Assembly: GCA_001662655.1 (NCBI GenBank)
Contig: KV460216.1
From: Pseudogymnoascus verrucosus
Taxonomy: Eukaryota
Reading direction: 5' to 3' (one strand)
DNA length: 64,000 nucleotides
The first letter of the stretch is position 1; each line of letters starts with the position of its first letter. A program made the translations under genes and the position numbers. The notes under the pieces were generated by a model, which saw only the letters and a list, made by a program, of their open reading frames with translations, ran no database searches and was not told the origin of the DNA. Positions 1 through 64,000 of this stretch are shown here, one piece after another.

Positions 1-535
1 GGCGTATGCATTGGCTGGAATCCGCACCGGCTGGATAGCCTGCCGCAACCCTGAAATCATCGAGGCATTGGCCAGTGCCAGAGATTACACAACGATATCT
101 GTGTCTCAGCTCGATGATCAAGTGGCAAGTTATGCATTATCTGCGAACGTCATACACGCATTGCTCTCGAGGAACATAAACTTGGCCAAAACAAACGTGG
201 CTCTGGTTGAAAAGTTCGTGAATGATCACAGCTCAGTGTGCTCCTGGGTAAAGCCGTTAGCAGGGACAACTGCCTTCATCCAATTCAAGAAGAACGGCGA
301 ACCAGTGGACGACGTGGCATTCTGTTTGGACGTACTGGAGAAGACCAAGGCCATGATACTGCCTGGCTCCAAGGGATTTGGACACGAGAGGGGGTTCGAC
401 TATAAGGGATATGTCAGAATTGGCTACGTCTGCCATACTGCCGTCTTGAAAGAGGCTTTGGAGAGGATGTCGAAGTATGTAGCTGAGGAGCTGGTAGGAG
501 GTGCATTCCCGAGTGGGCAGTTACCCCTTAGATGA
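1..535 (+). CDS. 3' part of a PLP-dependent class I/II aminotransferase (5' end outside window)
   Basis: Open frame AYALAGIRTGW...ARDYTTISVSQLDD...WVKPLAGTTAF...GYVRIGY, typical of the class I/II aminotransferase C-terminus; stop at 533-535. Confidence 0.85.
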   Translation, partial: AYALAGIRTGWIACRNPEIIEALASARDYTTISVSQLDDQVASYALSANVIHALLSRNINLAKTNVALVEKFVNDHSSVCSWVKPLAGTTAFIQFKKNGEPVDDVAFCLDVLEKTKAMILPGSKGFGHERGFDYKGYVRIGYVCHTAVLKEALERMSKYVAEELVGGAFPSGQLPLR

Positions 536-849
536 GAATATTCAAAAAAATGAAGCTCATGATCACCCCGAGGCCGATGGTCCCCACGTCGTAAGCTTGA
601 AAGTGTTTATTGTGCCCTGCTTCATAGTGAATCTCTTATCGTGCTGTCTGTTATCGATAACAATTAATCCTATCTTGATGGGTTGGGCTGCCCAAATATG
701 TGAAGTTGATCTCGCGTAGCAACTTTTAGCCTTTGTTATTCCTCCCCCTTCCTCTTTTCCTCCTTTTCACAACACAAATCATCATTCTATACTATGAATA
801 CCACTATACTTTTATTTGTATTATGGATTATTCAAAACCGACGGTGATA

Positions 850-1670
850 TGACCATCGTTTGGTCAATCCCAAAGTAGGTTCTCCATCCTCAGTGTTTCC
901 ATAACACAAGCATTCTTCCAGAATTTGGACCCGAAACAGAGCTGACTTTCTTCACTTTGCTCCAGAATACCGGTCGATATCTTTGGCGAGAACCACTCGC
1001 CACGGCGAAAAGCCAGGATTGGCTGGCCCGTAAGTCATCTCACTCTTCATTTCCACCCTTTTCCCTGCCGTGCCTCGAATAGCCAGACCTCAGGGACCAC
1101 ATGTGAACCTATGACCGGACTGGGCCTTGCTTTGTGGGCCTGCTGTCATCTTCGATCCTCGATCTCCCATGATCTCTGTTTGAAAGCAAGCCACTGACAC
1201 TCATACAGGCTGGCGGGCGGCCTTCTGCCGTCCCGCGAGGTCAACATTACCGGCGAGGTTAGCGTGCGCCTCTCTGTCGCCCGCTGATTAAGAATGAAGA
1301 ATCAGCGGGTGACGCGGATGCAAACGAGATGGGCTGATGGGCGGAGGAAGTTTTCGTAGCACTCGAGATCAAGGCTAGGAAACTGATAATACGTTTTATC
1401 AGTTTCGTAGCCTTGATCTCGAGTGCTACGAAAACTTCCTCCGCGGTTACCACCAGCGATCCCACTCTCCGCGAGGTCATGAACCTCTAGGGCATGGACC
1501 CACGCGACATCGACCCGACGGAGGGTGGGATCGCAGCTCCCTTGTAAGTGCTCTCCCTTGCTCCTTCCAGTTGTATGTGCTGACTGATGTTTGATCTAGG
1601 CCAGCATCGCTACACTGTACTGCCGCAAGATACTGGCTTAGGCTTTGTTTCTTCGCCATCTTCGACGTAA
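850..1670 (+). ncRNA. Putative spliced, highly structured non-coding transcript (lncRNA/milRNA host or long 5' leader of the SET gene)
   Basis: Consecutive canonical introns: GTAGGT 875..GCTGAC..CAG 965, GTAAGT 1030..ACTGAC..CAG 1208, GTAAGT 1544..GCTGAC..TAG 1599, further donor GTAAGT 1667. Only a ~47-codon spliced ORF. Exon 1209-1543 contains three hairpins. Confidence 0.5.
1341..1444. repeat. 49-bp near-perfect inverted repeat with 6-nt loop
   Basis: 1341-1389 GCGGAGGAAG...CTGATAA is the reverse complement of 1396-1444 except one G/G mismatch (1378/1407); loop TACGTT. Confidence 0.97.
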
Positions 1671-2551
1671 GTTAGTTTTTATTTCATGATATTGGATTCT
1701 TGTTACCGCAATGTTTGCTGGCACCCCATGAATTTCCTTCTACGGATCTGTCTTGTGTGGACTGTTGGAGTTGGCTGTTGGTGTTGCCATGCAGCCTGCT
1801 GCTGTCGATACGTTCTTGCCGTCTGCCCCTTTTCTTGTCACCGGCGGCGTCCTCAGGACGCCAATGACAGTCTTTGTTCTTGCTGCACACCCCCTTATAT
1901 CCGCCAGAATTCTTAGGCAGTGCCGATGATAGCCTCTGGTTTTTGTGTATAAAGCAACCTCTTTCAACCCTGACCACTATTCTTCTTTCTTCTTTTGTTC
2001 GTAACACAGCACGCACATCACGCACAGCACGCTCAATCTCTTTCACACACAATCGTCGCAGTATTATCGTACTCTAGCTTTACATTACACATCTTCTTTG
2101 AGCTCTACCTGCACTGGCTTCCAAATCCTCTACCTCCAACATCATATTTGAGCATCGTTTACGCTGAGCATTTGCACCTTCATTAGGTATTTGCTTCATC
2201 CACCACTGGGCTTTGCTTCATTAACCACAACCAATCACTCCTTGACATTTTGCTTCATCCGCCACGATCAATCTTGCCGATCTTTTGCTTTGTCCACGAC
2301 AAACTTTCAAATATTCCGAAGACTTTGCCCCGTCCACAGCAGCACTTCACCCTTCAAGCCTTTCAAGCCTTCCTCAACTTCCTCGGGCTCCACCAACAAC
2401 CAGTTCATTCTTTTTTCGAAGTGCGTTTCATAGAAATTTATTCTGCACACATTCTTTTCCTTTCTCAATCATTGTGTCATATCTCCCTTATTCTTTGTTG
2501 GAGTTCACCAAAGGCACTATGCAGACTTGGCTAACATTTTCCGCAATCAAG

Positions 2552-3611
2552 ATGTCAACAGACAAAATGGTGTCGTCGGCTGGCGTCTGCTGGACGTTGG
2601 CAGACGACTTTGCCCAATGGTGGGCAGAGGTGCGTTCTTTCACATTTCCACCTCACTCTTACTGCGGATTAAACTGACTCGATCTAGGGGGAGGTAGTTA
2701 CGGGAAAGGAGAAGGGAGTGGGATCGGTGGGATCGGTGACGCCGATTTCACCAGAATCGACGGCTGCGGTGGCACCGACTCCTGGTCCGATGGAGCAGGT
2801 GACATGCCCCTCCCTAGTGGAGGAGGCCTCCCATGCCGCCGTCACCGCGCAAACTTCCGGTTCTTCGAGAGATTCCGGTTCGCCTCTTTTCTCGATCCGC
2901 CCATCTCCCAAGGGTGGCATGGGTGCTTTCGCACTCTCGGACATTGCAGAATCCACTGTCATCATGAAAGAGCTGGCTCTCTTTCTAGCGACAGATGGCA
3001 AGGGGCACTTGGCGGAGGAATTGGAGAAACTCAGCGTGGAGGAAAGAACGGAGTTTTCAAAACTCGCGTGTTATGAGCTGCTAGACCGGGACCGGGACAC
3101 TGCCATCTTCAAAACAAATCGGTATGCTTGCTTTATTTTCTTCTTCTATGATGTTTGTTTTCTCGATCCCCTGGTTTGACTAGGGATGGAACACGACCTA
3201 ATGATGGACTTATCTCCTTCATATCAACACTTACTCGTGCTCCTGTACATTTTAATTTTTTGCTTTGAGATCGCGAAAGAAGGGACGCATCACATCATAT
3301 ACTGACTATAATACAGATTCCGCACCGGTTCCTCCTCCGGAATCTTTCTCGTCGCGTCGCGCTTCAACCACTCATGCAACCCCGTGATCCGCTACAGCTA
3401 CGACTACAGCAACCGCCAGCTGATCTTCTCGACGAAACGCGACGTCAAAGAAGGCGAAGAGCTCACAATCATGTACACGCCCAACTCGCAATACCTCAGC
3501 ATGGATTACGGGTTCCTTTGTGACTGCGGGGTCTGTGATCCACCTCTCAAGGTGCCGGTATACTATGATCGATGGGCGGACAAAGTGCCACACGAAACCG
3601 ACGACTGGTGA
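2552..3611 (+). CDS. SET-domain protein (3 coding exons: 2552-2629, 2688-3121, 3317-3611)
   Basis: Spliced frame gives SPKGGMGAFALSDI...IFKTNRF...GIFLVASRFNHSCNP...RDVKEGEELTIMY...YGFLCDCGVC (SET NHSC, ELxxxY and post-SET cysteines); canonical intron signals. Confidence 0.85.
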
Positions 3612-3682
3612 AGGGTGGACCAGTGGGTGAGGAGGGTGCTGAGCGATGGAGATTCTTGGGACGATGGAAATGTTGGCCGAAA

Positions 3683-3780
3683 GGAATGATCGAGAGGTCA
3701 GGGGGAAGTGCAAACGAAATGGTTTAATTTGGGGGTGGGAATGATCGGGAGGTCAGGGGGAAGTGCAAACAAATGGTTTT
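3683..3780. repeat. Direct repeat of ~42 bp, 2 copies, period 55 bp
   Basis: GGAATGATCG(A/G)GAGGTCAGGGGGAAGTGCAAAC(G)AAATGGTTT at 3683 and 3738. Confidence 0.9.
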
Positions 3781-4150
3781 ACTCGGGGGTGAAGTTTGTG
3801 ATGGAAGGGTGCGCGATGGGGGTTGGCAAATGTGTACAAAAGAGAGCACATAGAAATTACGTTGATCAATCGAAGCTTTTTTCCCCCTTTCTTTTTTGAA
3901 CCAAAACGCAAATCAATGATGTACAGAAGCCAGCTCTTTCAACAACCGGTCCACATCCTTATTTGTCTGTTCACAGGATGTCGATGGAATGGAATCAGTT
4001 GCCGTTCAAGTATAATGCCAGATCTTCAAACTCCTATCTATGCTTCTGAATCACTGTGAATGAATATGTGCATGGCTAAAAGTATTCCATTGGTGGTATA
4101 CAAGACAATATTGGTACAAAACATTTCCCCATATACAATACAACCCCTCT

Positions 4151-5071
4151 CTAATCCATCTTTCCTCCAGTCAACTCCTCCGCAATCTTCACCATTCTCT
4201 TGCCCGTCACCTTCGCCGGCGTCTGATAGTAATCCACAGCCTTCTTCTGTGTATTGCTGACCTCGCTCAGCATACTGAAGACCGTCATTGGCGATCCTTC
4301 GGCATCCCAAATATTCGTCTCGTTCTCCCTTCCGTGAACATGTGCAAACGGCCTCTCCGTGAAGATCTTGTCGATCTCAGCATCCAGCTCCTTCTCGGTG
4401 GTGATGAAAGAGCGTGCATGCATGTATAACGAGTGCAGCGAATCGCGGCGTGCCTCCTCCTGAGCCTTGATCTTCGCAGCCACCTTCTCCGCGGACGCAG
4501 CAATGCGAGCCGCTCTGTTCGGGTCGGGGAGGGCACCGTGCTGGAACGTGGCCATGGCGGCTGTGATGGTGGGTGAAGTGAGACGATCGGATTCTCGCTG
4601 GGGTGCATCAACAAGGCGTTGGTTGTTCTCTTGCGTAATGCTGCTCTTGCGTGCAACCTGAGCGTCCTTCTTCACCTTACGGTCGTAAAGCTTGGTCAGC
4701 CCCTCTCGCAGATTCTCACGCCGGGATGCGGCCATGCGTCGTTTCCACGCCGTGTATTCAGAAGGGGTCTTGGTGAGCTGGTGGGCGGCGGTTGGCTCGA
4801 AAGTGGCGCGGGCAATGTATTCAGGGGAGGACTTGTCGCCGGCTCGTTTCGGGAAGATGTTTCGGGGAACTGGGAGGACACCCTTGACATCGACATGCTT
4901 TTGGGCGAAGCGTTGCCGGGGAAGGGGGATCTCGATAAATTTTGGAGATTCAGGGCCAATGGCCTGGCACTGGGACGAGGAGGTGAAAGTGCGCGCTGCG
5001 GACTTGAAGCATAGCGATTGCTTCCCGCGGGCCAAGCTGCCCAGCGAGCTGGAGGGGAGTGACGGCGGCAT
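4151..5071 (-). CDS. Probable mitochondrial small-subunit ribosomal protein (mS26-like)
   Basis: Intronless ~306-aa ORF from MPPSLPSS. Presequence-like N-terminus (ARTFTSSSQCQA), GPESPKFIEIP and WKRRMAASRRENLREGL motifs recalled from fungal mS26-type proteins. Confidence 0.6.
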   Translation of the reverse strand: MPPSLPSSSLGSLARGKQSLCFKSAARTFTSSSQCQAIGPESPKFIEIPLPRQRFAQKHVDVKGVLPVPRNIFPKRAGDKSSPEYIARATFEPTAAHQLTKTPSEYTAWKRRMAASRRENLREGLTKLYDRKVKKDAQVARKSSITQENNQRLVDAPQRESDRLTSPTITAAMATFQHGALPDPNRAARIAASAEKVAAKIKAQEEARRDSLHSLYMHARSFITTEKELDAEIDKIFTERPFAHVHGRENETNIWDAEGSPMTVFSMLSEVSNTQKKAVDYYQTPAKVTGKRMVKIAEELTGGKMD

Positions 5072-5321
5072 TGTTGGAATTATATCCTCCCTATTGAGGT
5101 TCGTCGTCGAAATTCCGAAGACGAGCGTCCAGCGAGGTTTGGATTTCCTTAGCGTGTGGCTCGTGCTTTGATGTCTTGGCGCTAGATACCAGCCACGCTG
5201 ATAGTAAACTTTTTGCCGATAAACTTTTCTGCCAATCTGGAGAGGGACCATTTCTTCTTCATACCAAGAACATTTCCCCCATACCAACCACAATTAGAGG
5301 ATATTAATCCTCGTTGTCGCT

Positions 5322-7652
5322 ATGGGTACCGGAAAGAAAGAAGCGACCAGGAAGGTCCGCCAGGGAAAGGTCGGAGATGGCATGGAAAACGTCAAGGTCA
5401 AGGGCGAGAATTTTTATCGGTATGTTGTACCGTCAAGGCGCAATCCGCCGAAAACCACACCGTTCAAGAGCCAGAACTAACGTCGCACAGTACTGGTAAA
5501 CAAGCCAAGGTGTTGAAGATCTTCACTGGTGGTAAGGAGAGGAGAAACGCTGCTGGAAAAATCACACAATCTGCTGTATTCCAAGGCCGTGAAGTCCCAG
5601 CCGCCCGTATCGAGCCAAACAGGAAATGGTTCACCAACTCGAGAGTTATCAGCCAGGATGCGCTTTCTTCCTTTCGCGATGCCATGGCAGAGAGAGCAGC
5701 GGACCCATACACCGTGCTGCTGAAGACGAACAAATTACCTATGACCTTGATCAGAGATGGAGAAGGCAAGAATGGCATCAAGCAGCATCAAGCGAAGATT
5801 GCGGTCGAAGCTTCACCTTTCAGCGATACCTTCGGACCGAAATCACAGCGTAAGCGTGTTAAGCTCAGCGTCAACTCTCTGGCGGATCTTGCGGACGATA
5901 GTGTCAAGAGCCACGATACATACCTGGACAGACTTGAGCAAGCCAAGCTTCTGAGCGGCAATCCCGAGGAAAAAGAGACTGTTGGAGAGGCAGCACCTGA
6001 AGATTACGGCTACGTCTCGAGCGCAAGGGAAGCTATCTTCAGCAAGGGACAGAGCAAACGTATTTGGAACGAGCTTTACAAGGTTATCGATTCTTCTGAC
6101 GTTGTCATCCACGTTCTCGATGCAAGAGACCCGCTCGGCACGAGGTGTCGCAGCGTCGAGAAATACATCAAGGAGGAGGCACCGCACAAGCATCTCATCT
6201 TCGTTCTCAACAAGTGCGATTTAGTACCTACTGGCGTTGCTGTAAGTTCACCCATTTTTTCAAATAATCTCTTTAGTTTTCCTGCGTTTCCATCGTTAAG
6301 TCAAGACATCTTCTGCATATTATGTGCTCCTCACAATGGAAGTTTGCCTGTTACAACTTTGGTATATTGACTCCATTCTCGCCGCTCTTGATCCAAGAAT
6401 CTTGACGACTGGGCCACGTGCCCGACAGTCTCGATTTGAGGACGGATCTCGAGTAGACAGCGGCCCGTCTTGGGACGCCTGTCGTAAAGAGTTTGGTTCT
6501 GTTTCGTTTGAGTTGAAGGCCGCTCCCACTCTTATGGTGGCTTGTAGCAGCCTTCTTAGTAATGATTCATACATACCCCCCAAAAACAACATATTTTGTC
6601 GCATAACTGACATTTATATTCAGGCTGCCTGGGTCCGCTATTTATCGAAAGATTACCCCACCCTCGCCTTCCACGCCTCCATCACCAACTCCTTCGGCAA
6701 GGGCTCCCTCATCCAACTCCTCCGCCAATTCTCCAGCCTCCACTCCGACCGCAAGCAAGTCTCCGTCGGCTTCATCGGCTACCCCAACACCGGCAAATCC
6801 TCCATCATCAACACCCTCCGCAACAAGAAGGTCTGCACCGTCGCTCCCATCCCCGGAGAGACCAAGATCTGGCAGTACATCACCCTCATGAAGCGCATCT
6901 ACCTGATCGACTGCCCCGGTGTCGTCCCACCCTCCTCATCCGACACCCCGCAGGATATTCTCCTCCGTGGTGTCGTGCGTGTCGAGAACGTCGAGAACCC
7001 TGAGCAGTACATCCCCGCCGTTCTGGCGAAGACCAAGCCTCAGCACATCGAGCGCACCTACGCGCTGCGCGGCTACAAGGACCACATTGAGTTCCTGGAG
7101 CTGCTCGCTCGCAAGGGTGGACGTCTGTTGCACGGTGGCGAGCCGGATGTGGATGGTGTTGCCAAGATGGTGCTGAATGATTTCCTTCGCGGAAAAATTC
7201 CTTGGTTCACCCCGCCGCCGCTTTTGGAGGGCGCGGAGGCTGATGTGAAGGGCGTCGAGGGCCGTATGGGGAAGCTGGGCGAGATGGGCAAGAAGAGGAA
7301 GAGAGAGGATGCTGAGTCGACTGTTGCCGAGTCCGAGGCGGCTGATACTTCTATGGCTGATGTGACTGGTGACGATTTCGAGGGCTTTGGCTCGGATGGT
7401 GGAGCAGACCTGTCGGATGATGGGATGCCGGATAGTGATTCTGAGGTTGAGGAGGGCGGTGCGGAGCTTGAAGATGATGATGAGGACAATGAGGATGCCG
7501 AGGATGTGGACGAAGAAGAAGAGGAGGAGGATGAGGAGGGTTTAGAAGATGCGATTGCACAGCAGATTCGCGAGACGATAAAAAGTAATCCGAAAACCAG
7601 GGGTACGGTGAAGATACCGACGCCGAGAAAGGAGCGGCGGACGAAGCGTTAA
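5322..7652 (+). CDS. NOG2: Nucleolar GTP-binding protein 2 (exons 5322-5419, 5491-6241, 6624-7652)
   Basis: MGTGKKE...VKGENFY start, NGP1NT region ([28 protein letters not shown]), circularly permuted GTPase motifs [17 protein letters not shown], acidic tail. Confidence 0.97.
6288..6576 (+). ncRNA. snR191: Intronic H/ACA snoRNA, snR191/U19 orthologue
   Basis: Lies in the 382-nt NOG2 intron (6242-6623), the known host of yeast snR191. Pocket 1 AGTCA (6299-6303)/GTTAC (6350-6354) is followed 14 nt later by H-like ATATTG. Pocket 2 GAGT/TAGT flanks a GAAGGC/GCCTTC stem, with ACA at 6571-6573 14 nt later. Both pockets complement 25S helix 69 GUAACUAUGACUC. Confidence 0.85.
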
Positions 7653-15046: not shown

Positions 15047-18000
15047 CTACATAAGGGTATCTCCATCTATTGAGAATGATGTTGCCCCATGGCTGAGAAG
15101 TAAGGCTTTAATCCTCCCTAATTTGAAGCCATCAGGCATACCCTCATTTCCATTATTTCCATAGGGGGTGCCTTGAGAATTTTCGAATATTTGAAGAGGA
15201 CTATCGCCATGTAGCGCGTTAAATTGACCTAAATATGTGTCGTCTTCCCATTTAGCACCGAAATTATTCCCAGTGTCGTTAGAGTTTGCACCAGCTTCAA
15301 GAAGCATCCGGCATCCTTCGTAATCTGATGTTACAACAGCGATTTGTATTGGTGCCACATAGTAATCCATTCCCGTTGGATCAGCGCCAATTTGTAGTAA
15401 CACCTCAACCGGGCAAGACTGTCTGCAATTTTTCTCGTGGATGTGGGACCCGATGTATGATACGAGTAACGCCGAAGGATCGGTTTCTTTACACCTGTAG
15501 CTTAGAAAAAATCCAAATGCTTCAGGGTAAAAGAAGCCTAATTGTGCGAGGATTTCGAGTAATTGACCAGAAAACACGTAACGAGCGGAATCTTTTCCGG
15601 GCTGCCTGTTCACGACTATTTCGAAGGCTAAGTGCGTTGTTGTCCATGCCTGAAGTATTTGTGCGCCATGGTCCGGCTGTTTAGTGAAAACTAAGTTCTT
15701 AGTCCACAATAGTAGGAGAAATATTGCACCAACATCTGCTGGGGGAGGTGATTTCCACTCGATTTCCCAGAAGGTTGAACCTGGGTCATAGCGATGCTTA
15801 TCATCATATAGCAAAGTGCTAGTGCTGATGAACGAGTGTAAATCTTCAAGACAACGAATGAAATAAAAAAGCGGGTTGTAGTGAGGTGCAGATGGGTTAT
15901 ATAGGGCGAATACAAGTGCGTTTAAATCTTCTCGCCTACTAATTTGTTCGGACCAGTGATTTATTGATAGAACTGCTGACGCGGCGCAGTATGCGGCGAA
16001 GTTCTCGATCAACTTCCTGTTGTTCCAGTCTTCTGTTTCTCGTATTTCGTCAGAGCAATTTGAGGGTATTACGCAGGAGTCCTGGTTTATGCTCCTATCA
16101 ACGTCGTTTTGGAGGAAATTATCTGCTGAGTATGAAATTTCTTCGTCGCTACCGTGTCCATCTCTGTAAGTAGTAGGATTGAGCGCTATAAGGATTGCTG
16201 CCTTTACTGAATCTAGCGGAATATGATCTTTCGGAAATGAAAAATAAGAAGCGCGGCTTCTAGATATGCGCTCCGAGTCAAGGAATTCGAGTACAGTGTA
16301 ATGGGCAAACGATATAGAGGGAGGCCTAAAGACAAGGTCGTCGTTCTCAACCTCGTCGTCATCATCGTTCTCTTCGTCCTCGCTGTCGTCGCCCTCATAG
16401 TCTTCGTCTGCACCCTCATCATACTCATCCTCGTTATATTCGTCCTCGTCTTCGGAAACCTCGTTGTCATCCTCGCTCTCATCCTCGTCATCAGTTTCCG
16501 CGACTCCAATAAAGCCAAATGGGCGTCCATTTGATATGGTAATGAGACAGCCACATAGCTCTCTAATGGTTGTTTCATCGTAAAAGTTACCATTGCCATA
16601 TGTATCCGAGAGAGGATTCTTCTCTAGTGCTTGAATTACTATTCCACATGGGACTTTAGCTCCATAAAGTTTACTGTGAAATAAAGTCCATTCGAAAACC
16701 TGCCGGACAACTGCCCAGTCCTCCTGGGGGATCTCAAGAAATATTCTTTCATAGGTCTCATCTAGCGTCTTCGGTAAGTTGTGGAGAGCTTCCATAATAA
16801 TGAGGCGTTCGGGCTTCATTCGCTGTAGCCGGTCGATCTGGCAAACAGCCCAGCGGAACCTAATATATTAGTTTAGATTCTAGACACTTTTAAATTAATA
16901 AAAAAAACTTACATTCCTTTTGCCTTGGTTGGTATTGTATTTTCGACCTCTTCAAGAAGCTGCTGGGGCCAGCGTAAAAATCTAATATTTCTCTGCAACT
17001 CTACTTGCACATAAGATCGGATGTCGTTGGTAACATCTTCGTTATCCATCGAAACAGCACATGATATATTTTCGAGCGCTGTTTCAATATCGACATACTC
17101 TCTACTAGTTGCCAGAAGTCGTATCTTGGCAAACCGTGGATCAGTTGCCAAATCCCTGAGCATCTTGAGCAGATCTTGTCGTGGAGACATGCTTTCGTCG
17201 ACTGCATCTATAACAACAAAGACACATTCAAACTCTGCGAGGCAACTCTCGAGGATATCTAGAAGATCTAGAATACTAGGTTGTAATCCGGATTTGAATT
17301 GCTCGTACGCCGTTATAGGGACCGAGTTTGATTTTCGGAGCAGTTGGCTCACAATCCAGTGGAGCAAAGGGTATGCTTCATTCTGGTTGTGGGTGTACGA
17401 GCAGTAGTAATACATACAGCCGTATTGTTTCCTGACGGTGCGACAATGCTTCGAAATGGTTTCTATTAAATAGGAAGCCAAAACGGTCTTGCCTGCACCA
17501 GGAATACCATGAATCCATAAGAACTTATTGTCACCGCAAATCCAGTCTTTCCAGTCTGAGGACTGTAGCATCCAGTCGCCAGTTCCTACTACATAATGTC
17601 CATAGGCGACATTGTGTAGTGGGGAAGGATCAGTTCGTTGAAACCATGCGGAAATGTCTCTCTTTTGGTTATCTATTCCTGGTAAGCAAAAATATAAATT
17701 ATTAAGCCCGAGGCAGCTATTCGAACCTGTTAAGTCTTCTTTAATCCAAGTCGTTGTATCTTTAATCATCTTGATATCTTGGCTAAACGACTTAGATTAG
17801 TTATGTATAGTAGATACAACCAGTTGAATTGTACATAGAGCTCCTCACCTAGATTCCGTAGTGAGTGTTAAACTGATGGTTGTCTTGCATCTGGCAATTT
17901 CACTCATTAACTTTGCGGCCTTGCTTTCCTTCAGGGGCCAAGCTAAGGTAATCAATGCCCTCTTTGCTTTGTTACGCATTGGTTGGTTTGCCTTGGAGTC

Positions 18001-26338: not shown

Positions 26339-27438
26339 GGTCGCGTCAAGAGAGCTTTTGATTTCGAGCTCAATGCTGTGAAGGGAGACGAGAACCACCA
26401 AAATCTGAGATGGGGTTACACGATCACGTCCTCATCCCCATATATATATCTACCCATGAGAAGGATCTTTACTAACCACATCTGCTCTCCATCACTTCGG
26501 GCATCTTTTCCCGCACCTCCAACATCACCTCCACCGCGATCTCCACTGACCCCAGCTCGAGCATCCTCCACTGCATACATCCCCCATCACCAACCCCCCA
26601 TCCACCACACTAATCAACACCCGCGCAAGCTTTTCCGCCACATAAAAACCACGGCAACACGGCTCTACTAACGTTCAAGGTTATTACCTTAGTTCGTAGT
26701 TCGGGATTTCCAGGACGCGTCCCACTGCGCGCGCCGCGCTAAGAATACCCCGCCAATGGAGGTTCGGACAACTTCCGAGTTAACATAAGCTGTGGGGATT
26801 TTTTGACAACTGTTGGTGGTATGTTATTCAGAGCTGCTGAGAGCTCCTGGGGTAATTATTGTGGAGATGGGGGATGGGGGATGGGGTTGCTTGGGGAAAG
26901 CTTCTCTCCGCAACCCCACAAAGTAAGTGGTGGCGTCTATATCTAGCGAATTTGAGTCGGAGGTTGTCCGAACCTCAACTGGATTAAGATGCGAAGCAGG
27001 CAAAAAAAAACTGTGAAGGGGCTAAAAGCAAAGTATTGTGAAATGTGTTGTCTTGTTTGCTGTCTGTCCTTGATTTGATCCATGGTCGTCTGAATCGCGA
27101 ATACAAATATTTTCTGCATTTCACTGTCAGTTGCTCCCACTCCCCAACTTTGAATGACGAGAGCTTCATTATCACCATCTATCTCAGCTAACTCCATCAA
27201 GTTGCGTGAATCCATTACTTCTATCCATGATACCGATACTCCTTTCGCCATCCCACAACGCAGTCGACGCAAAAAGAATTGCAAGCCCCCAAAAGCATAA
27301 CAGCAACCGGTAACACCACAACTTCCCCAATACTCCAGACCATAGCCTCACTCTAGGCATTAACCGCGATCGGGCCACCATTACCTGCAAATACAGCTCC
27401 CCAAATCATCCTTCTCTCATCAGCGCCGTCCCAATCTG

Positions 27439-46342: not shown

Positions 46343-46859
46343 ATAGCGGACACGTTCTAGACGGGACAGCGATGAATGAATGATGTGCTTGGAAATGTTG
46401 GGATAATGACTGAGGACAGCGGGCATCATAGCGAGAGCTTGTCTGTGCGGAGGATCGTAATGTGAGAAGTGTTGTGAGAGAGAAAGTCGGAGTCGGAGTC
46501 GCGGGGTCGAGCGAGGAGAATTGGAGGATATCTGTGTGTGGGTACGGTACGGAGTAGTTATATGCGATATATAGCTGGAAGGGGACGGTACAGCGATTGG
46601 GGGCGCGATAGATGGGATGAAGTTGTGAATATGAATGGTATTATGTATGCATTTACAGCAGTGTATCGTTTCTCTTAAATCCGTTTTGACAGCGTCACTC
46701 CCCATAGCTCAAGCCCTCGTGGGCGAGATTCTGATAACAGCAAACCGATCACGTGACCACTTATTTATCGCCGCGAACCTCTCAGCCAACCTTAAATTTC
46801 CTGAGTCCAGAACGTCAACATCCACAGCTCTCCCAAACAACCTCACACCACACACAACC

Positions 46860-48443
46860 ATGGCGGACCTCAACGCCTACCCAGCGGACATGGCGCCCCA
46901 AAACGCGCTGGTCGCGCGCCAGCTCTCCGGCCCCGACCACGCCGTCGTACCCTACAGCGCCGAAAACCTGTCGCGCCCCACGCAAGGGCCCGCGAACCCA
47001 TTTAAAGACGACGTGAATAGCTTGAAGCGCAAGAACGTGCCGACGGGGTTCGCGCAGGAGACGTACATGAGCGAACATACGTTCCGGTCGCAGCAGCTTG
47101 CTGGGGTGAGGGGCGCGAGGGGGGGGATGACGGGCCCGGAACTGAAGGCGGAGGCGGAGCGGATAAAGGCGAAGAGGATGAAGAGGGGGGATGCGCTGGT
47201 GGTGGAGGGGGAGGGGGAGTATGTTGGGCCGTGGGCGGGGTATAAGAGGGCGGAGTATGAGGAGAGGGATGCGGAGGATGGGGGGGAGTTGGGGAGCGGG
47301 GAGGAGTATGAGGAGGTTACGGATGAGGAGGGGGTGGTGGAGAGTGGGACGGTGGTGAAGGCGCTGCCGCAGGCTGTGGCGAAGAGGAAGGAGGAGGAGG
47401 GACAAGGGGGGGAGACGACGACGTTTCATGGGGAGGAGGAACGCGATTATCAGGGCAGGACGTATATGCATGTTCCGCAGGACTTGGATGTGGATCTGAG
47501 GAAGGAGGAGGGAAGCATCAAGAACTTCGTGCCGAAGAAGTTGATACATACGTGGAAGGGACATACCAAGCCTGTCGTGGCGCTGCGCTTCTTCCCGAGC
47601 AGCGGACATGTCATGCTCAGCGCCAGCGCGGACTCGACTGTCAAGCTATGGGACGTTTACCACCAGCGCGAGCTCCTGCGTACGTTCTCCGGCCACACCA
47701 AGGCGCTGTCGGATATCACTTTCAACACTTCCGGCTCGCAATTCCTCTCCGCATCATATGATCGCATGATCAAGCTCTGGGACACCGAGACGGGCCAATG
47801 CATCAACCGCTTCACGACGGGCAAGACCCCGCACGTGGTGCGCTTCAACCCCGACCCGGAGAACGCGCACGAGTTCCTGGCTGGTATGAGCGATAAGAAG
47901 ATCGTGCAGTTCGATACGCGCACGCGCGCCATCGTGCAGGAGTACGATCACCATCTCGCAGCTGTCAATACGCTCACCTTCGTCGACGAGGCGAGGCGCT
48001 TCATCTCGACGTCTGATGATAAGAGTTTAAGAGCCTGGGACTACCATATACCCGTCCCGATCAAGTACGTTGCTGAGCCATACATGTACCCTCTCGTGCG
48101 CTCGTACGCCCATCCGAACGGCAAGGCGGTGCTGTTCCAGAGCGCGGATAACCAGATCGTGGTATACGCTGCTGGGGACAAGTTCAGGCAGAACAGGAAG
48201 AAGGTGTACAAGGGGCACAACAACGCGGGATACGCGATTGATGTTGTGGTGAGCCCTGATGGGCAGTTCGTGGCCAGTGGTGATAGTGGGGGTTATGTGT
48301 GCGTGTGGGACTGGAAGACGTGTAAGATGTGGCATAAGATTAAGGTTGCCGAGGGGGCGGTGACGGCGCTGGCGTGGCAGCCGCAGGAGAGTAGTCGTGT
48401 GGCGGCGGCAGGGTTGGATGGGAAGATTAGGTATTTTGATTAA
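46860..48443 (+). CDS. PRP17: Pre-mRNA splicing factor, WD40
   Basis: DYQGRTYMHVP, PKKLIHTWKGH, seven WD repeats, QEYDHHL, FQSADNQI, WDWKT. Confidence 0.95.
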   Translation: MADLNAYPADMAPQNALVARQLSGPDHAVVPYSAENLSRPTQGPANPFKDDVNSLKRKNVPTGFAQETYMSEHTFRSQQLAGVRGARGGMTGPELKAEAERIKAKRMKRGDALVVEGEGEYVGPWAGYKRAEYEERDAEDGGELGSGEEYEEVTDEEGVVESGTVVKALPQAVAKRKEEEGQGGETTTFHGEEERDYQGRTYMHVPQDLDVDLRKEEGSIKNFVPKKLIHTWKGHTKPVVALRFFPSSGHVMLSASADSTVKLWDVYHQRELLRTFSGHTKALSDITFNTSGSQFLSASYDRMIKLWDTETGQCINRFTTGKTPHVVRFNPDPENAHEFLAGMSDKKIVQFDTRTRAIVQEYDHHLAAVNTLTFVDEARRFISTSDDKSLRAWDYHIPVPIKYVAEPYMYPLVRSYAHPNGKAVLFQSADNQIVVYAAGDKFRQNRKKVYKGHNNAGYAIDVVVSPDGQFVASGDSGGYVCVWDWKTCKMWHKIKVAEGAVTALAWQPQESSRVAAAGLDGKIRYFD

Positions 48444-62244: not shown

Positions 62245-64000
62245 TCATGACCCATACGGAAATACTTTCCAAATCCACCTCTCCGTCTTCAGCTCCAGAT
62301 CAAACTCATGTCCCCACACCCCCCGATAAATCCCTACAGCCTCGTCACTCTTCGCCGTCCGCATTGCTTTCGTAAACTCCCAGTACGCCGGCATGAAAGA
62401 CGCGCCCTCCACAATCCCCGACAACCGTCCCCCATCCACGAGCACATTAGAGAAGAAGAGATCTCCATGCGTAAACACCGAGTCATGGGACCGCGAAAAC
62501 GCAGTCGGGATCTCATCCGTCAGGTACTTCATAAACTCGGTCCTACCTAAGAGGCGCATATTCAGGTCTCCCTCTGAGTTGTACGGGCCCGCATTATCTG
62601 AGAGGCGGTTGTCGTAGATAGATCCACCGGAGACATTGGAGTAGCGATATGGCGACGTGTTCTTGATCTTGTGCATTTGAGCGAGAATATTAGACAGGTC
62701 GGCGGCGAGCTGCGCGCGCTCGGCATACGAGGTGCGGTGGATGACGCTCTCGAGGCGCGTGCCGGGGACGCGGGTCATGATGAACCAGTCGACTGAGTCG
62801 TCGGTGAAGGTGTCGATGAGGAGGGGGGCAAGGATGGAAGGGGCTTCGCGCTCGAGGGTGCGGAGGGCGTGGACTTCGTTGTCTCCGGCTATGGTGCAGC
62901 GCTTTGCGTAGAGGCCAAAGGGGAGCTGCTGCACGACGTCGGAGATGTCGTGGCCGTATTTGGATTTTCCTTTTTCGAGGAGATGGCGGTAGCAGGTTAT
63001 GCGGATGAATTTTGGTACGAGGAGCCAGAGGGTGCGGACTATGAGTTGCGTGCTGCGACTGAAGTATGCTGCACAGCACGCAACTCATAGTCCGCACCCT
63101 ACGTTAGCACGTGGTATGTGATCAAGAGGGACAGGTGAACTCGCATTGGGATTGTAGAGGGCCCCAGCCGCCAGATATGCGCTCCTCAACATGGAACTGA
63201 TGGAGGGCGTTGGCAAACTTGAAATGCGTCTTGAGGAGAAAGGGGCTTGGTAGAGGGAGCTGCTTTGGATCCTCGGTCTGTAGAGCGATTGTGTAAGGGG
63301 AGCCAGGGCCGCAGAACGATGATCTATCAGCAAGAAGGATATGATCATAAGGTTCTGGATATATTTCAAAAATGAAGTACTACCCAAATTAGTAAATGCC
63401 GATGACAATGTGCGGCAGTCGATTAGATATGCTCACCTTAGCCGTCAAGTCGTCCTTGCCTGTATCCTCATCAAGCTTGTCCCAACTCTTCGCACCGTGG
63501 ATCCGAACCTGGAGATGCCCGTTTTTAAAGGCGTGCTGTACGCTTGGTGCAAGAAGCAATGCGTTTGCAAGTTTCCCCGGATCGGTTCTGTCTGAAACCA
63601 TGTTCTGCAACCGCGCCACTCTCGACGGCGTCATGAACGCGTCCAGCAGCGACTTTTATGAGTGCTACATTAAATGCGTCAGTATTAAATAGCATGGCCT
63701 GTAGGAATAAACACAATACCTCAGCTCCATCCGCATCTACCAGCTCTGATAGAGCGGGCGGGATAATAAACGTTGGTTCCGGTTCATCGAGCTGTTGGCG
63801 GTCAGGTGGGGTTACGCAACACCTGGCAGGATCGCGACGAGCAACCAGGTCTCTAAGGGAAGCATCAAATGGCGTTTGGTGAGAGACTACTTGAGGTTTT
63901 AGTACTGGTCTCGACTTGCGGGAATGAATGGAGATACTCACTGACAGCTACCAGCTCATGCCAGTCCTGTTTGAGGACGCGCAAAGCCTCTTCCACCGGC
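62245..64000 (-). pseudogene. HNH-like nuclease domain plus APH/choline-kinase-like fusion gene with lesions (5' end outside window)
   Basis: Spliced frame RDLVARRDPARCCVT..NALLLAPSVQHAFKNGH..LPLPSPFLLKTH|..VQQLPFGLYAK..NEVHAL..FIMTRVPG..FTHGDL..NVLV. Lesions: probable in-frame TAA 63656-63658 and loss of DW from the IVDWE motif. Confidence 0.75.
63029..63100. repeat. Perfect 27-bp inverted repeat, 18-nt loop
   Basis: AGGGTGCGGACTATGAGTTGCGTGCTG (63029-63055) and its exact reverse complement (63074-63100). Confidence 0.98.

What the first reader, a model, noticed from the sequence alone, without database searches (positions are those of the whole stretch)
1341..1444. 49-bp near-perfect hairpin: candidate milRNA/siRNA precursor
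Seen: a 49-bp stem with one G/G mismatch and a 6-nt loop. It may extend imperfectly, since GCTGATGG at 1333-1340 pairs with CCACCAGC at 1450-1457. It lies in an exon of an apparently non-coding spliced transcript. Known: long stems like this are Dicer substrates, and fungal microRNA-like RNAs arise from such precursors. Inference: an endogenous small-RNA locus just upstream of a SET-domain gene.
Basis: partly seen in the sequence, partly recalled or inferred. Interest (0 to 1): 0.8.

Follow-up and report, generated by a model that had tools for sequence, protein, structure and literature searches.

The report
Conserved 104-base palindrome between two genes
A real, nearly perfect 104-base DNA palindrome lies in the non-coding gap before a SET-domain gene of a filamentous fungus and is shared by a few close relatives; it probably arose from one copying error and could make small RNAs, but nothing yet shows that it does.

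Summary
Positions 1341-1444 form a spacer-less palindrome: 52-nt arms, a 49-position stem with one G/G mismatch, a 6-nt loop, fold z = -14.5. Read-derived contigs of four public runs confirm it, so it is not an assembly artefact. It is single-copy in the window and is not a multi-copy transposon.

The left arm and its upstream flank have an older, non-palindromic paralogue elsewhere in the genome. The right arm is therefore an inverted duplicate made in place, most simply by a template switch or fold-back priming.

The palindrome is present in two more diverged relatives, with one double compensatory change (1368/1417) and a G·U change. One relative has lost 20 nt of the right arm, and the hairpin evolves faster than its flanks. 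Two more distant syntenic relatives have no hairpin.

No RNA data could be found, so small-RNA production is untested. Best reading: a young, lineage-restricted inverted duplication, a potential but unproven Dicer substrate. Interest is moderate to low.

The parts
1341..1392 (+). Left arm of the palindrome. This is the presumed original copy, because it is contiguous with the sequence that has a paralogue elsewhere in the genome.
   Evidence: In one search, X2 record 6 and X3 record 10 match 1325-1375 and 1325-1373.
1393..1444 (+). Right arm, the inverted duplicate of 1341-1392. Mismatches lie at 1378/1407 (G/G) and 1390/1395 (T/T).
   Evidence: In one search the second locus matches in one orientation only and does not break its contig.
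1333..1340 (+). Outer imperfect extension of the stem, left side. It pairs with 1450-1457 at 7 of 8 positions, across a 5-nt bulge at 1445-1449.
1450..1457 (+). Outer imperfect extension of the stem, right side.
1258..1325 (+). Neighbouring upstream hairpin, with a 14-bp core stem 1276-1289 / 1300-1313 and a 10-nt loop.
   Evidence: I2. In one search the stretch 1209-1340 has z = -3.9 on + and -2.5 on -.
1456..1534 (+). Neighbouring downstream hairpin, with 23-nt arms that are 83% complementary.
   Evidence: I3. In one search the stretch 1445-1543 has z = -5.2 on + and -3.9 on -.
1233..1243 (+). First copy of an 11-nt direct repeat (CCGCGAGGTCA). Together with the second copy it brackets the upstream hairpin and the palindrome.
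   Evidence: D1, spacing 236.
1469..1479 (+). Second copy of the 11-nt direct repeat.
2..535 (+). 3' end of a class I/II aminotransferase gene, the upstream neighbour.
   Evidence: PF00155.
2519..3611 (+). Small SET-domain gene, the downstream neighbour. My own three-exon model, read from the sequence, is 2519-2629, 2688-3122 and 3317-3611.
   Evidence: (PF00856). The exon borders are inferred from GT..AG signals and reading frame, not from RNA.

Best explanation
The feature is a genuine, evolutionarily young, lineage-restricted inverted duplication in non-coding DNA. One event copied about 52-60 nt of local sequence back on itself and made a spacer-less palindrome. The likely event is a replication template switch or fold-back priming at the central ACGT.

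The copied sequence already had an older, non-palindromic paralogue elsewhere in the genome. The palindrome has been inherited by at least three differently named, closely related organisms.

Its arms have stayed largely complementary, most likely through arm-to-arm correction at the DNA level (template switching or mismatch repair in the folded state), possibly helped by weak selection on structure.

Any transcript through it would carry a 49-bp double-stranded stem. In a fungus with working RNA interference that stem would be diced into siRNA-like small RNAs. It is therefore raw material for a hairpin-RNA gene, but no dedicated function is shown.

Shown: that the palindrome exists, its copy number, its presence in relatives and the changes there, its absence from more distant syntenic relatives, and the paralogue.

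Inferred: how it arose, the arm correction, and any dicing.
For: 1. The palindrome is real and far beyond chance. Read-derived contigs of four runs hold it.

2. Origin in place. In X2 and X3 a second long contig (25,442 and 26,842 nt) matches 1325-1375 and 1325-1373, with 7 and 5 differing letters. It matches in one orientation only, and its loose ends still resemble the window on both sides up to about 1390 (compared by eye). The left arm and its flank are therefore an old paralogous sequence, and only the right arm is new.

3. The arms meet with no spacer at ACGT. That is the geometry expected from fold-back or template-switch copying.

4. It is not an old conserved element. L001 (84% aa identity in the aminotransferase) and L003 keep the order aminotransferase, then SET. 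Their spacers cannot be aligned to the window's, and they hold no stem of 20 bp or more. None of the 23 loci (143.5 kb) has one, apart from one at a contig end.

5. The sequence is not constrained. X3 differs at 5 of 104 hairpin positions against 13 of 863 in the near flanks (p = 0.036). The changes shared by X3 and X4 number 4 of 104 against 11 of 1298 (p = 0.02). X3 has also lost 20 nt of the right arm, which leaves a 28-bp stem.

6. Template switching is documented to make perfect hairpins in one step (PMC10710096, abstract and section 5 read). In yeast promoters it homogenises and expands inverted-repeat arms, including a 48-bp perfect arm (PMC13100816, abstract and passages read).
Against: Some pairing looks maintained.

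- 1368 A>G and 1417 T>C are partners and changed together in X3 and X4. The rough chance of that among 5 substitutions is about 0.03.
- 1409 A>G keeps a G·U pair.
- Of the single-sided changes that fall in predicted stems of the 335-nt block, 3 keep pairing only on the + strand RNA and 1 only on the - strand. This hints weakly at an RNA-level constraint on the + strand.
- The two flanking stretches are themselves more structured than shuffles (z = -3.9 and -5.2). The near flanks are less diverged in X3 than the DNA further downstream (13 of 863 against 22 of 435, p = 0.0004). A functional structured RNA would also produce that pattern.
- A perfect 52-nt-arm palindrome is expected to be unstable (recalled from the yeast literature, not checked here), yet it has survived speciation.

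The origin event cannot be reconstructed, because no relative with an alignable spacer that lacks the right arm was found. X4-only changes were cut from the table, so X4's arm complementarity is only partly known.
Confidence: 0.55

Rival explanations
1. It is a working hairpin small-RNA gene (milRNA or hpRNA/endo-siRNA precursor). The + strand is transcribed, perhaps as an exon (about 1209-1543) of a spliced non-coding RNA. Dicer cuts the 49-bp stem, and the small RNAs act on the paralogous second locus or another target.
For: - The stem length and perfection suit Dicer (general knowledge).
- It lies in an intergenic position and is present in at least 3 named relatives. Those are two of the three tier criteria for fungal mi/milRNAs (PMC9757828, sections 11 and 22 read).
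- There is one compensatory pair, and the G·U-preserving changes favour the + strand 3 to 1.
- The flanks are hairpin-rich and structured.
- Splice-like signals bound 1209-1543.
- The arm derives from a sequence with a paralogue. That resembles the inverted-duplication origin proposed for young plant miRNA genes (recalled, not checked).
Against: - There is no evidence of transcription or small RNAs of any kind.
- The hairpin's sequence evolves faster than its flanks, and no arm segment stands out as a conserved mature strand.
- X3 lost 20 nt of one arm.
- The second locus is only about 86-90% identical over about 50 nt, which is poor for siRNA-type targeting.
- No complement longer than 12 nt exists in the 64-kb window.
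- Fewer than half of the reported fungal mi/milRNA loci pass basic standards (PMC9757828, abstract). At least one filamentous ascomycete makes very few RNAi-dependent small RNAs (PMC12871901, abstract).
Confidence: 0.25
2. It is a cis-acting element of the SET-domain gene. It could work as a DNA palindrome in the upstream regulatory region, for example as a binding site for dimeric factors or through a cruciform. It could also work as a stable stem in a long 5' leader that blocks scanning or changes RNA stability.
For: - It lies about 1.1 kb upstream of the inferred SET start codon (2519), on the same strand.
- Inverted-repeat expansion in yeast promoters is frequent and changed the expression of GRE2 (PMC13100816, abstract).
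Against: - About 1 kb of pyrimidine-rich, promoter-like DNA lies between the hairpin and the gene, so the hairpin is probably outside the core promoter and the 5' UTR.
- 52-nt arms are far longer than any binding site.
- L001 and L003 keep the same gene pair without any hairpin.
Confidence: 0.1
3. It is a remnant of a mobile element (a miniature inverted-repeat or fold-back transposon), or an inserted segment of about 236 bp flanked by the 11-nt direct repeat.
For: - Terminal-inverted-repeat-like symmetry.
- An 11-nt direct repeat at 1233 and 1469 brackets the upstream hairpin and the palindrome.
- A second genomic locus shares part of the sequence.
Against: - Only one extra locus was laid, in X2 and in X3, at 80% likeness or more.
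- That locus shares one arm plus flank beyond the repeat boundary, so it is not a discrete element.
- There is no target-site duplication directly at the palindrome's ends.
- There are no copies in the 64-kb window.
- The 11-nt repeat does not bound the homology with the second locus.
Confidence: 0.07
4. It is an assembly or sequencing artefact, such as a chimeric fold-back read.
For: Palindromes are a known product of library artefacts (general knowledge). X1 and X2 may be the very data from which the window was assembled.
Against: Independent runs of other named organisms (X3, X4) carry it inside long contigs, with their own substitutions.
Confidence: 0.01

Closest known systems
Template-switch mutations that create perfect hairpins and de novo miRNA genes (Monttinen, Frilander & Loytynoja 2023, PMC10710096; abstract and section 5 read)
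   Same: A perfect inverted copy of adjacent sequence appears in one lineage. It makes a full stem at once in non-coding DNA, and later point changes follow.
   Different: Those cases are in primates, with inverted fragments mostly of tens of bases, and they were inferred from ancestral reconstruction. Here the pre-event state could not be recovered, the arms are 52 nt with no spacer, and no expression is known.
Inverted-repeat expansion by template switching in Saccharomyces promoters (Rozenfeld et al. 2026, PMC13100816; abstract and passages read)
   Same: It is a fungal, intergenic, upstream-of-gene setting. Arms are homogenised and expanded, and one strain carries a perfect 48-bp arm upstream of SPT8.
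   Different: The yeast events are strain-level polymorphisms with spacers of up to 70 bp, and they were studied as factor-binding sites. Here the palindrome is fixed across several named organisms, has no spacer and lies about 1.1 kb from the gene.
Fungal microRNA-like / hairpin small-RNA loci (Johnson et al. 2022, PMC9757828; abstract, sections 11 and 22 read)
   Same: It is an intergenic hairpin, conserved between related genomes, and it overlaps no transposon, coding sequence or Rfam structural RNA.
   Different: The defining small-RNA evidence is missing. This stem is long and almost perfect, with a 6-nt loop. That is closer to an inverted-repeat transgene or hpRNA than to a short imperfect miRNA-type hairpin.
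Young plant MIRNA genes from inverted duplication of target genes, and Drosophila hpRNA endo-siRNA loci (recalled from memory; no paper read here)
   Same: A long, near-perfect fold-back is derived from a sequence that also exists elsewhere in the genome, which could be its target.
   Different: The founder locus here is uncharacterised and only about 86-90% identical. No coding frame could be assigned to it: a 41-aa arm peptide found no protein.

Membership tests
Fungal mi/milRNA hairpin locus (tier criteria of PMC9757828) | Small RNAs of Dicer size map to the hairpin, confirmed and replicated by sRNA-seq. | not testable with these tools
   No RNA holder was listed.
Fungal mi/milRNA hairpin locus (tier criteria of PMC9757828) | Intergenic or non-CDS context. 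| tested here: met
   It lies between the aminotransferase stop (535) and the inferred SET start (2519). No ATG-started frame of note crosses it. No protein shares the arm peptide. No conserved ORF was found by tblastx against 23 related loci.
Fungal mi/milRNA hairpin locus (tier criteria of PMC9757828) | [quoted passage not shown] | tested here: met
   It is present in X1/X2, X3 and X4, which carry four organism labels. It is absent from the more distant syntenic loci L001 and L003.
Fungal mi/milRNA hairpin locus (tier criteria of PMC9757828) | No overlap with a transposon, a CDS or an Rfam structural RNA. | tested here: met
   Rfam gives only sub-threshold miRNA-shaped matches, with no structural RNA. 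It is not repetitive.
Template-switch / fold-back inverted duplication | A stretch is the exact reverse complement of directly adjacent sequence. | tested here: met
   The 52-nt arms are 96% complementary with 0 nt between them.
Template-switch / fold-back inverted duplication | A parental state without the inverted copy can be shown in an outgroup or ancestor. | tested here: inconclusive
   The paralogous second locus is not palindromic, which supports a non-palindromic ancestor. No orthologous spacer that lacks the right arm could be aligned: the spacers of L001 and L003 are too diverged.
Miniature inverted-repeat transposon | Many dispersed copies with defined ends. | tested here: not met
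   There are two matches in the window, which are the two arms themselves. Only one further locus was laid in X2 and in X3 at 80% likeness or more. The whole genome was not available.
Miniature inverted-repeat transposon | Target-site duplication flanking the terminal inverted repeats. | tested here: not met
   No direct repeat abuts 1341/1444 or 1333/1457. The only direct repeat (11 nt, at 1233 and 1469) lies 90-100 nt and 12-25 nt away from those ends.

The most novel reading that the evidence does not exclude
The 335-nt block 1209-1543 may be a newly born, + strand, spliced non-coding RNA gene that carries a row of hairpins. On this reading its central 49-bp stem is diced into small RNAs, and that stem was made in one step by inverted duplication of a fragment whose paralogue elsewhere in the genome is the founding target. 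It would be a fungal example of a template-switch-born hairpin small-RNA gene caught young, with pairing kept by compensatory change across species.
Probability: 0.12. Interest if true: 0.65.

Novelty: new member of a known kind. Interest (0 to 1): 0.33.

Why it matters
If it is only a fixed copying error, it is a clean natural example of three things. A 104-bp spacer-less palindrome can survive speciation in a fungus. Its arms co-evolve. It decays by arm deletion.

If it is expressed and diced, it would show how a fungal small-RNA gene is born in one mutational step from sequence related to another locus. This question is open because most reported fungal microRNA-like loci are poorly supported (PMC9757828, abstract).

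Either way the locus gives a simple, testable target: 104 bases to delete or to probe.

Tried and rejected
- **Whole genome.** None is held. Genome-wide copy number, targets and the presence of Dicer and Argonaute could not be checked.
- **RNA evidence.** No RNA holder was listed among the 14 runs. This says nothing about expression.
- **Rfam.** The region 1-6000 gave only 6 sub-threshold miRNA-family matches, on both strands. I rejected them as structure-only look-alikes.
- **Exact-pattern scan of metagenome contigs** with a 25-nt arm pattern found 0 hits.
- **Protein-anchored scan.** It gave 23 loci. Only L001 and L003 keep the SET neighbour. Their spacers gave no significant blastn or tblastx match to window 536-2700.
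- **Coding reading of the arm or of the second locus.** A 32-aa query was too short. The 41-aa query found no protein of 73-2000 aa sharing three 5-residue words. This is weak evidence. Only one of the open frames was tried, though the shared words would also have caught the same peptide read from the right arm on the + strand.
- **Earlier findings of this scan.** There was nothing for this place or this sequence. One unrelated 5-kb fungal palindrome turned up by words.
- **Targets inside the window.** The longest exact match of the arm elsewhere is 12 nt.
- **Strand call from G·U asymmetry.** The count is 3 to 1 for the + strand, and the MFE of 1209-1543 is -206.1 on + against -197.5 on -. 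This is too little to decide.
- **Constraint on the flanks.** X3's low divergence in 700-1666 is not mirrored in X4, whose 700-1220 piece has 47 differing letters in 521 nt. It may reflect mosaic ancestry rather than selection.
- **Taxon.** I did not try to name the organism. 'Filamentous ascomycete' is my inference from gene content (NACHT/NPHP3_N beside WD40) and from short introns with GTAAGT..CTGAC..AG-type signals.

Full report
**1. The observation**

The left arm is 1341-1389, the loop 1390-1395 and the right arm 1396-1444. The only break in the stem is the G/G mismatch at 1378/1407.

The repeat finder reads the feature as two 52-nt arms, 96% complementary, that abut with no spacer. The centre is the 4-nt palindrome ACGT at 1391-1394.

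The outer extension 1333-1340 / 1450-1457 pairs at 7 of 8 positions across a 5-nt bulge.

As RNA, 1300-1490 folds at -118.3 kcal/mol, against -54.5 +/- 4.4 for dinucleotide shuffles. That gives z = -14.5, with 0 of 200 shuffles as good. As DNA, 1333-1457 folds at -62.6 kcal/mol, z = -20.6.

Within the 64-kb window the arm occurs only at these two places, allowing up to 3 mismatches. Only one other short-spacer hairpin of note exists in the window, at 63029-63100.

**2. The palindrome is real in the organism**

No genome is held for the window. Public runs were found instead:

| Run | Share of sampled words | Note |
|---|---|---|
| X1 | 1.00 | may be the source data |
| X2 | 0.99 | may be the source data |
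| X3 | 0.29 | different organism label |
| X4 | 0.23 | different organism label |

I laid their contigs on 700-3700 at 80% likeness or more.
- The unitigs of X1 and X2 break at the arms, as a k-mer assembler must at a palindrome. A 90-nt unitig (1348-1437) and a 93-nt unitig (1352-1444) span the loop.
- A single 45-kb contig of X3 crosses the whole stretch.
- A 13.9-kb contig of X4 covers 1237-3700.

An assembly artefact is therefore excluded.

**3. Surroundings**

- Upstream, 2-535 (+) is the 3' end of a class I/II aminotransferase gene (PF00155).
- Downstream is a small SET-domain gene (PF00856). I read its start codon at 2519, with exons 2519-2629, 2688-3122 and 3317-3611. These borders come from reading frame and GT..AG signals, not from RNA.
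- The stretch from about 1670 to 2500 is strongly pyrimidine-rich on the + strand. I take that as promoter or leader DNA of the SET gene.

The palindrome therefore sits in a 2-kb non-coding spacer, about 0.8 kb after one gene and about 1.1 kb before the next.

Nothing suggests that it is coding:
- No meaningful ATG-started frame crosses it.
- Pfam finds nothing in the frames across it.
- A 41-aa arm peptide finds no protein of 73-2000 aa (weak evidence).
- tblastx against 23 related loci finds no conserved small ORF in 536-2700.

Rfam gives only six sub-threshold matches to miRNA families, on both strands. Any long hairpin would do the same.

This is plausible but untested.

**4. A row of hairpins**

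The palindrome has structured neighbours.

| Stretch | z on + strand | z on - strand | Main feature |
|---|---|---|---|
| 1209-1340 | -3.9 | -2.5 | 14-bp perfect core 1276-1289 / 1300-1313 |
| 1445-1543 | -5.2 | -3.9 | 23-nt arms at 1456-1478 / 1512-1534 |

The whole block 1209-1543 folds into four successive stems.

An 11-nt direct repeat (CCGCGAGGTCA) at 1233 and 1469 brackets the upstream hairpin and the palindrome.

**5. Origin**

In X2 and X3 a second long contig (25,442 and 26,842 nt) matches 1325-1375 and 1325-1373, with 7 and 5 differing letters. Each matches once, in one orientation, without breaking the contig.
- The loose ends on the left resemble window 1291-1324, with small insertions and deletions.
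- The loose ends on the right still match 9 of 10 letters at 1381-1390 and then diverge.

Both comparisons were made by eye.

So the left arm together with its upstream flank is an old paralogue of another, non-palindromic locus. The homology stops at the palindrome's centre. The right arm is therefore the new part, an inverted copy made in place.

Arms that meet exactly at a short natural palindrome fit fold-back priming or a replication template switch. This step is inference.

Such events are documented to create whole hairpins at once (PMC10710096, abstract and section 5 read). In yeast promoters they expand and homogenise inverted-repeat arms, including a perfect 48-bp arm in one strain (PMC13100816, abstract and passages read).

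**6. Evolution in relatives**

X3 differs from the window in the hairpin as follows:

| Position | Change in X3 | Effect on pairing |
|---|---|---|
| 1349 | A>T | partner 1436 is deleted in X3 |
| 1368 | A>G | pairs with 1417, changed together |
| 1417 | T>C | pairs with 1368, changed together |
| 1407 | G>C | closes the G/G mismatch, which is therefore a change on the window's own lineage |
| 1409 | A>G | keeps a G·U pair with U1376 on the + strand |
| 1423-1442 | 20 nt missing | removes part of the right arm |

X4 shares 1349, 1368, 1407 and 1417 but not the deletion. Changes seen in X4 alone were cut from the table, so its arms are only partly known.

Positions 1368 and 1417 are pairing partners, so A-U became G-C. 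This is a double, compensatory change. My rough estimate of that happening by chance among five substitutions is 0.03.

A model of the X3 form keeps a 28-bp stem. The X4 form, with only the four listed changes, keeps the full stem with one new mismatch at 1349/1436.

Of the single-sided changes in predicted stems of the 335-nt block, 1281, 1409 and 1457 keep a G·U pair only in + strand RNA, and 1314 only in - strand RNA. That is too few to decide the strand.

Against sequence constraint:
- X3 has 5 substitutions in 104 hairpin positions, against 13 in 863 in the near flanks (p = 0.036).
- The changes shared by X3 and X4 are 4 in 104, against 11 in 1298 elsewhere in 700-2101 (p = 0.02).

The hairpin therefore changes faster than its surroundings while mostly staying self-complementary. 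Arm-to-arm correction at the DNA level gives that pattern. So does selection on structure alone.

**7. How far back it goes**

A protein-anchored scan of metagenome contigs gave 23 loci with relatives of the aminotransferase, at 59-84% identity. Only L001 and L003 keep the SET neighbour.

Their spacers give no significant match to window 536-2700. None of the 23 loci (143.5 kb in all) holds a stem of 20 bp or more, apart from one at a contig end. An exact scan for the arm in metagenome contigs found nothing.

The palindrome is thus confined to a narrow group of close relatives.

**8. What it is and how it works**

Best reading (0.55): a young, fixed inverted duplication in non-coding DNA. Its complementarity is kept mainly by DNA-level arm correction. 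It would yield double-stranded RNA, and hence small RNAs, whenever it is transcribed in an RNAi-competent fungus. It has no shown function.

The working small-RNA-gene reading (0.25) is not excluded. The locus meets the context and conservation criteria used for fungal mi/milRNAs but lacks the essential small-RNA evidence (PMC9757828, sections 11 and 22).

That paper's abstract reports that fewer than half of the published fungal loci pass basic standards. The abstract of PMC12871901 reports very few RNAi-dependent small RNAs in one filamentous ascomycete, although inverted-repeat transgenes are diced there into 20-nt small RNAs with a 5' U.

The remaining readings are less likely:
- A cis-regulatory role for the SET gene: 0.1.
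- A mobile-element remnant: 0.07.
- An artefact: 0.01.

**9. Novelty and verdict**

This is a new member of a known kind, the template-switch or fold-back palindrome that is a candidate hairpin-RNA locus.

It is a well-defined and unusually clean example. It has a traceable paralogue, it persists across species, and it shows one compensatory change. Without RNA evidence it remains a candidate. Interest 0.33.

Noticed in passing
window 63029-63100: A second perfect hairpin: 27-bp arms with an 18-nt loop and fold z = -10. Its left arm overlaps the 5' end of a minus-strand ORF of the phosphotransferase (APH) family, 62245-63084. It may be another template-switch product.
   Followed up: partly
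window 1233-1243 and 1469-1479: An exact 11-nt direct repeat, 236 nt apart, brackets the upstream hairpin and the palindrome. It could mark the ends of an inserted or templated segment, or it could be chance.
   Followed up: partly
window 1453-1467 versus 2716-2730: A 15-nt stretch next to the palindrome is 93% complementary to a short tandem motif inside exon 2 of the SET gene (I5). By my rough estimate about 0.3 such matches are expected by chance in 4 kb.
   Followed up: no
window 700-3700, compared with X3 and X4: Divergence is uneven along the stretch. X3 differs by about 1.5% in 700-1666 but about 5% in 1667-2101. X4 differs by about 9% in 700-1220 and about 5% in 1237-3700. This suggests mosaic ancestry or local constraint. 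The X4 contigs also break at 1220-1237.
   Followed up: partly
window 16909-17796 (-) and 46635-48443 (+): One ORF has an NPHP3_N/NACHT NTPase domain and another is rich in WD40 repeats. Both are typical of fungal NLR-type genes.
   Followed up: no
window 26753-26982: An inverted repeat with 31-nt arms, 84% complementary, 168 nt apart.
   Followed up: no
L021 1-89: A 27-bp stem sits at the very end of a metagenome contig. It is probably an assembly end effect.
   Followed up: no
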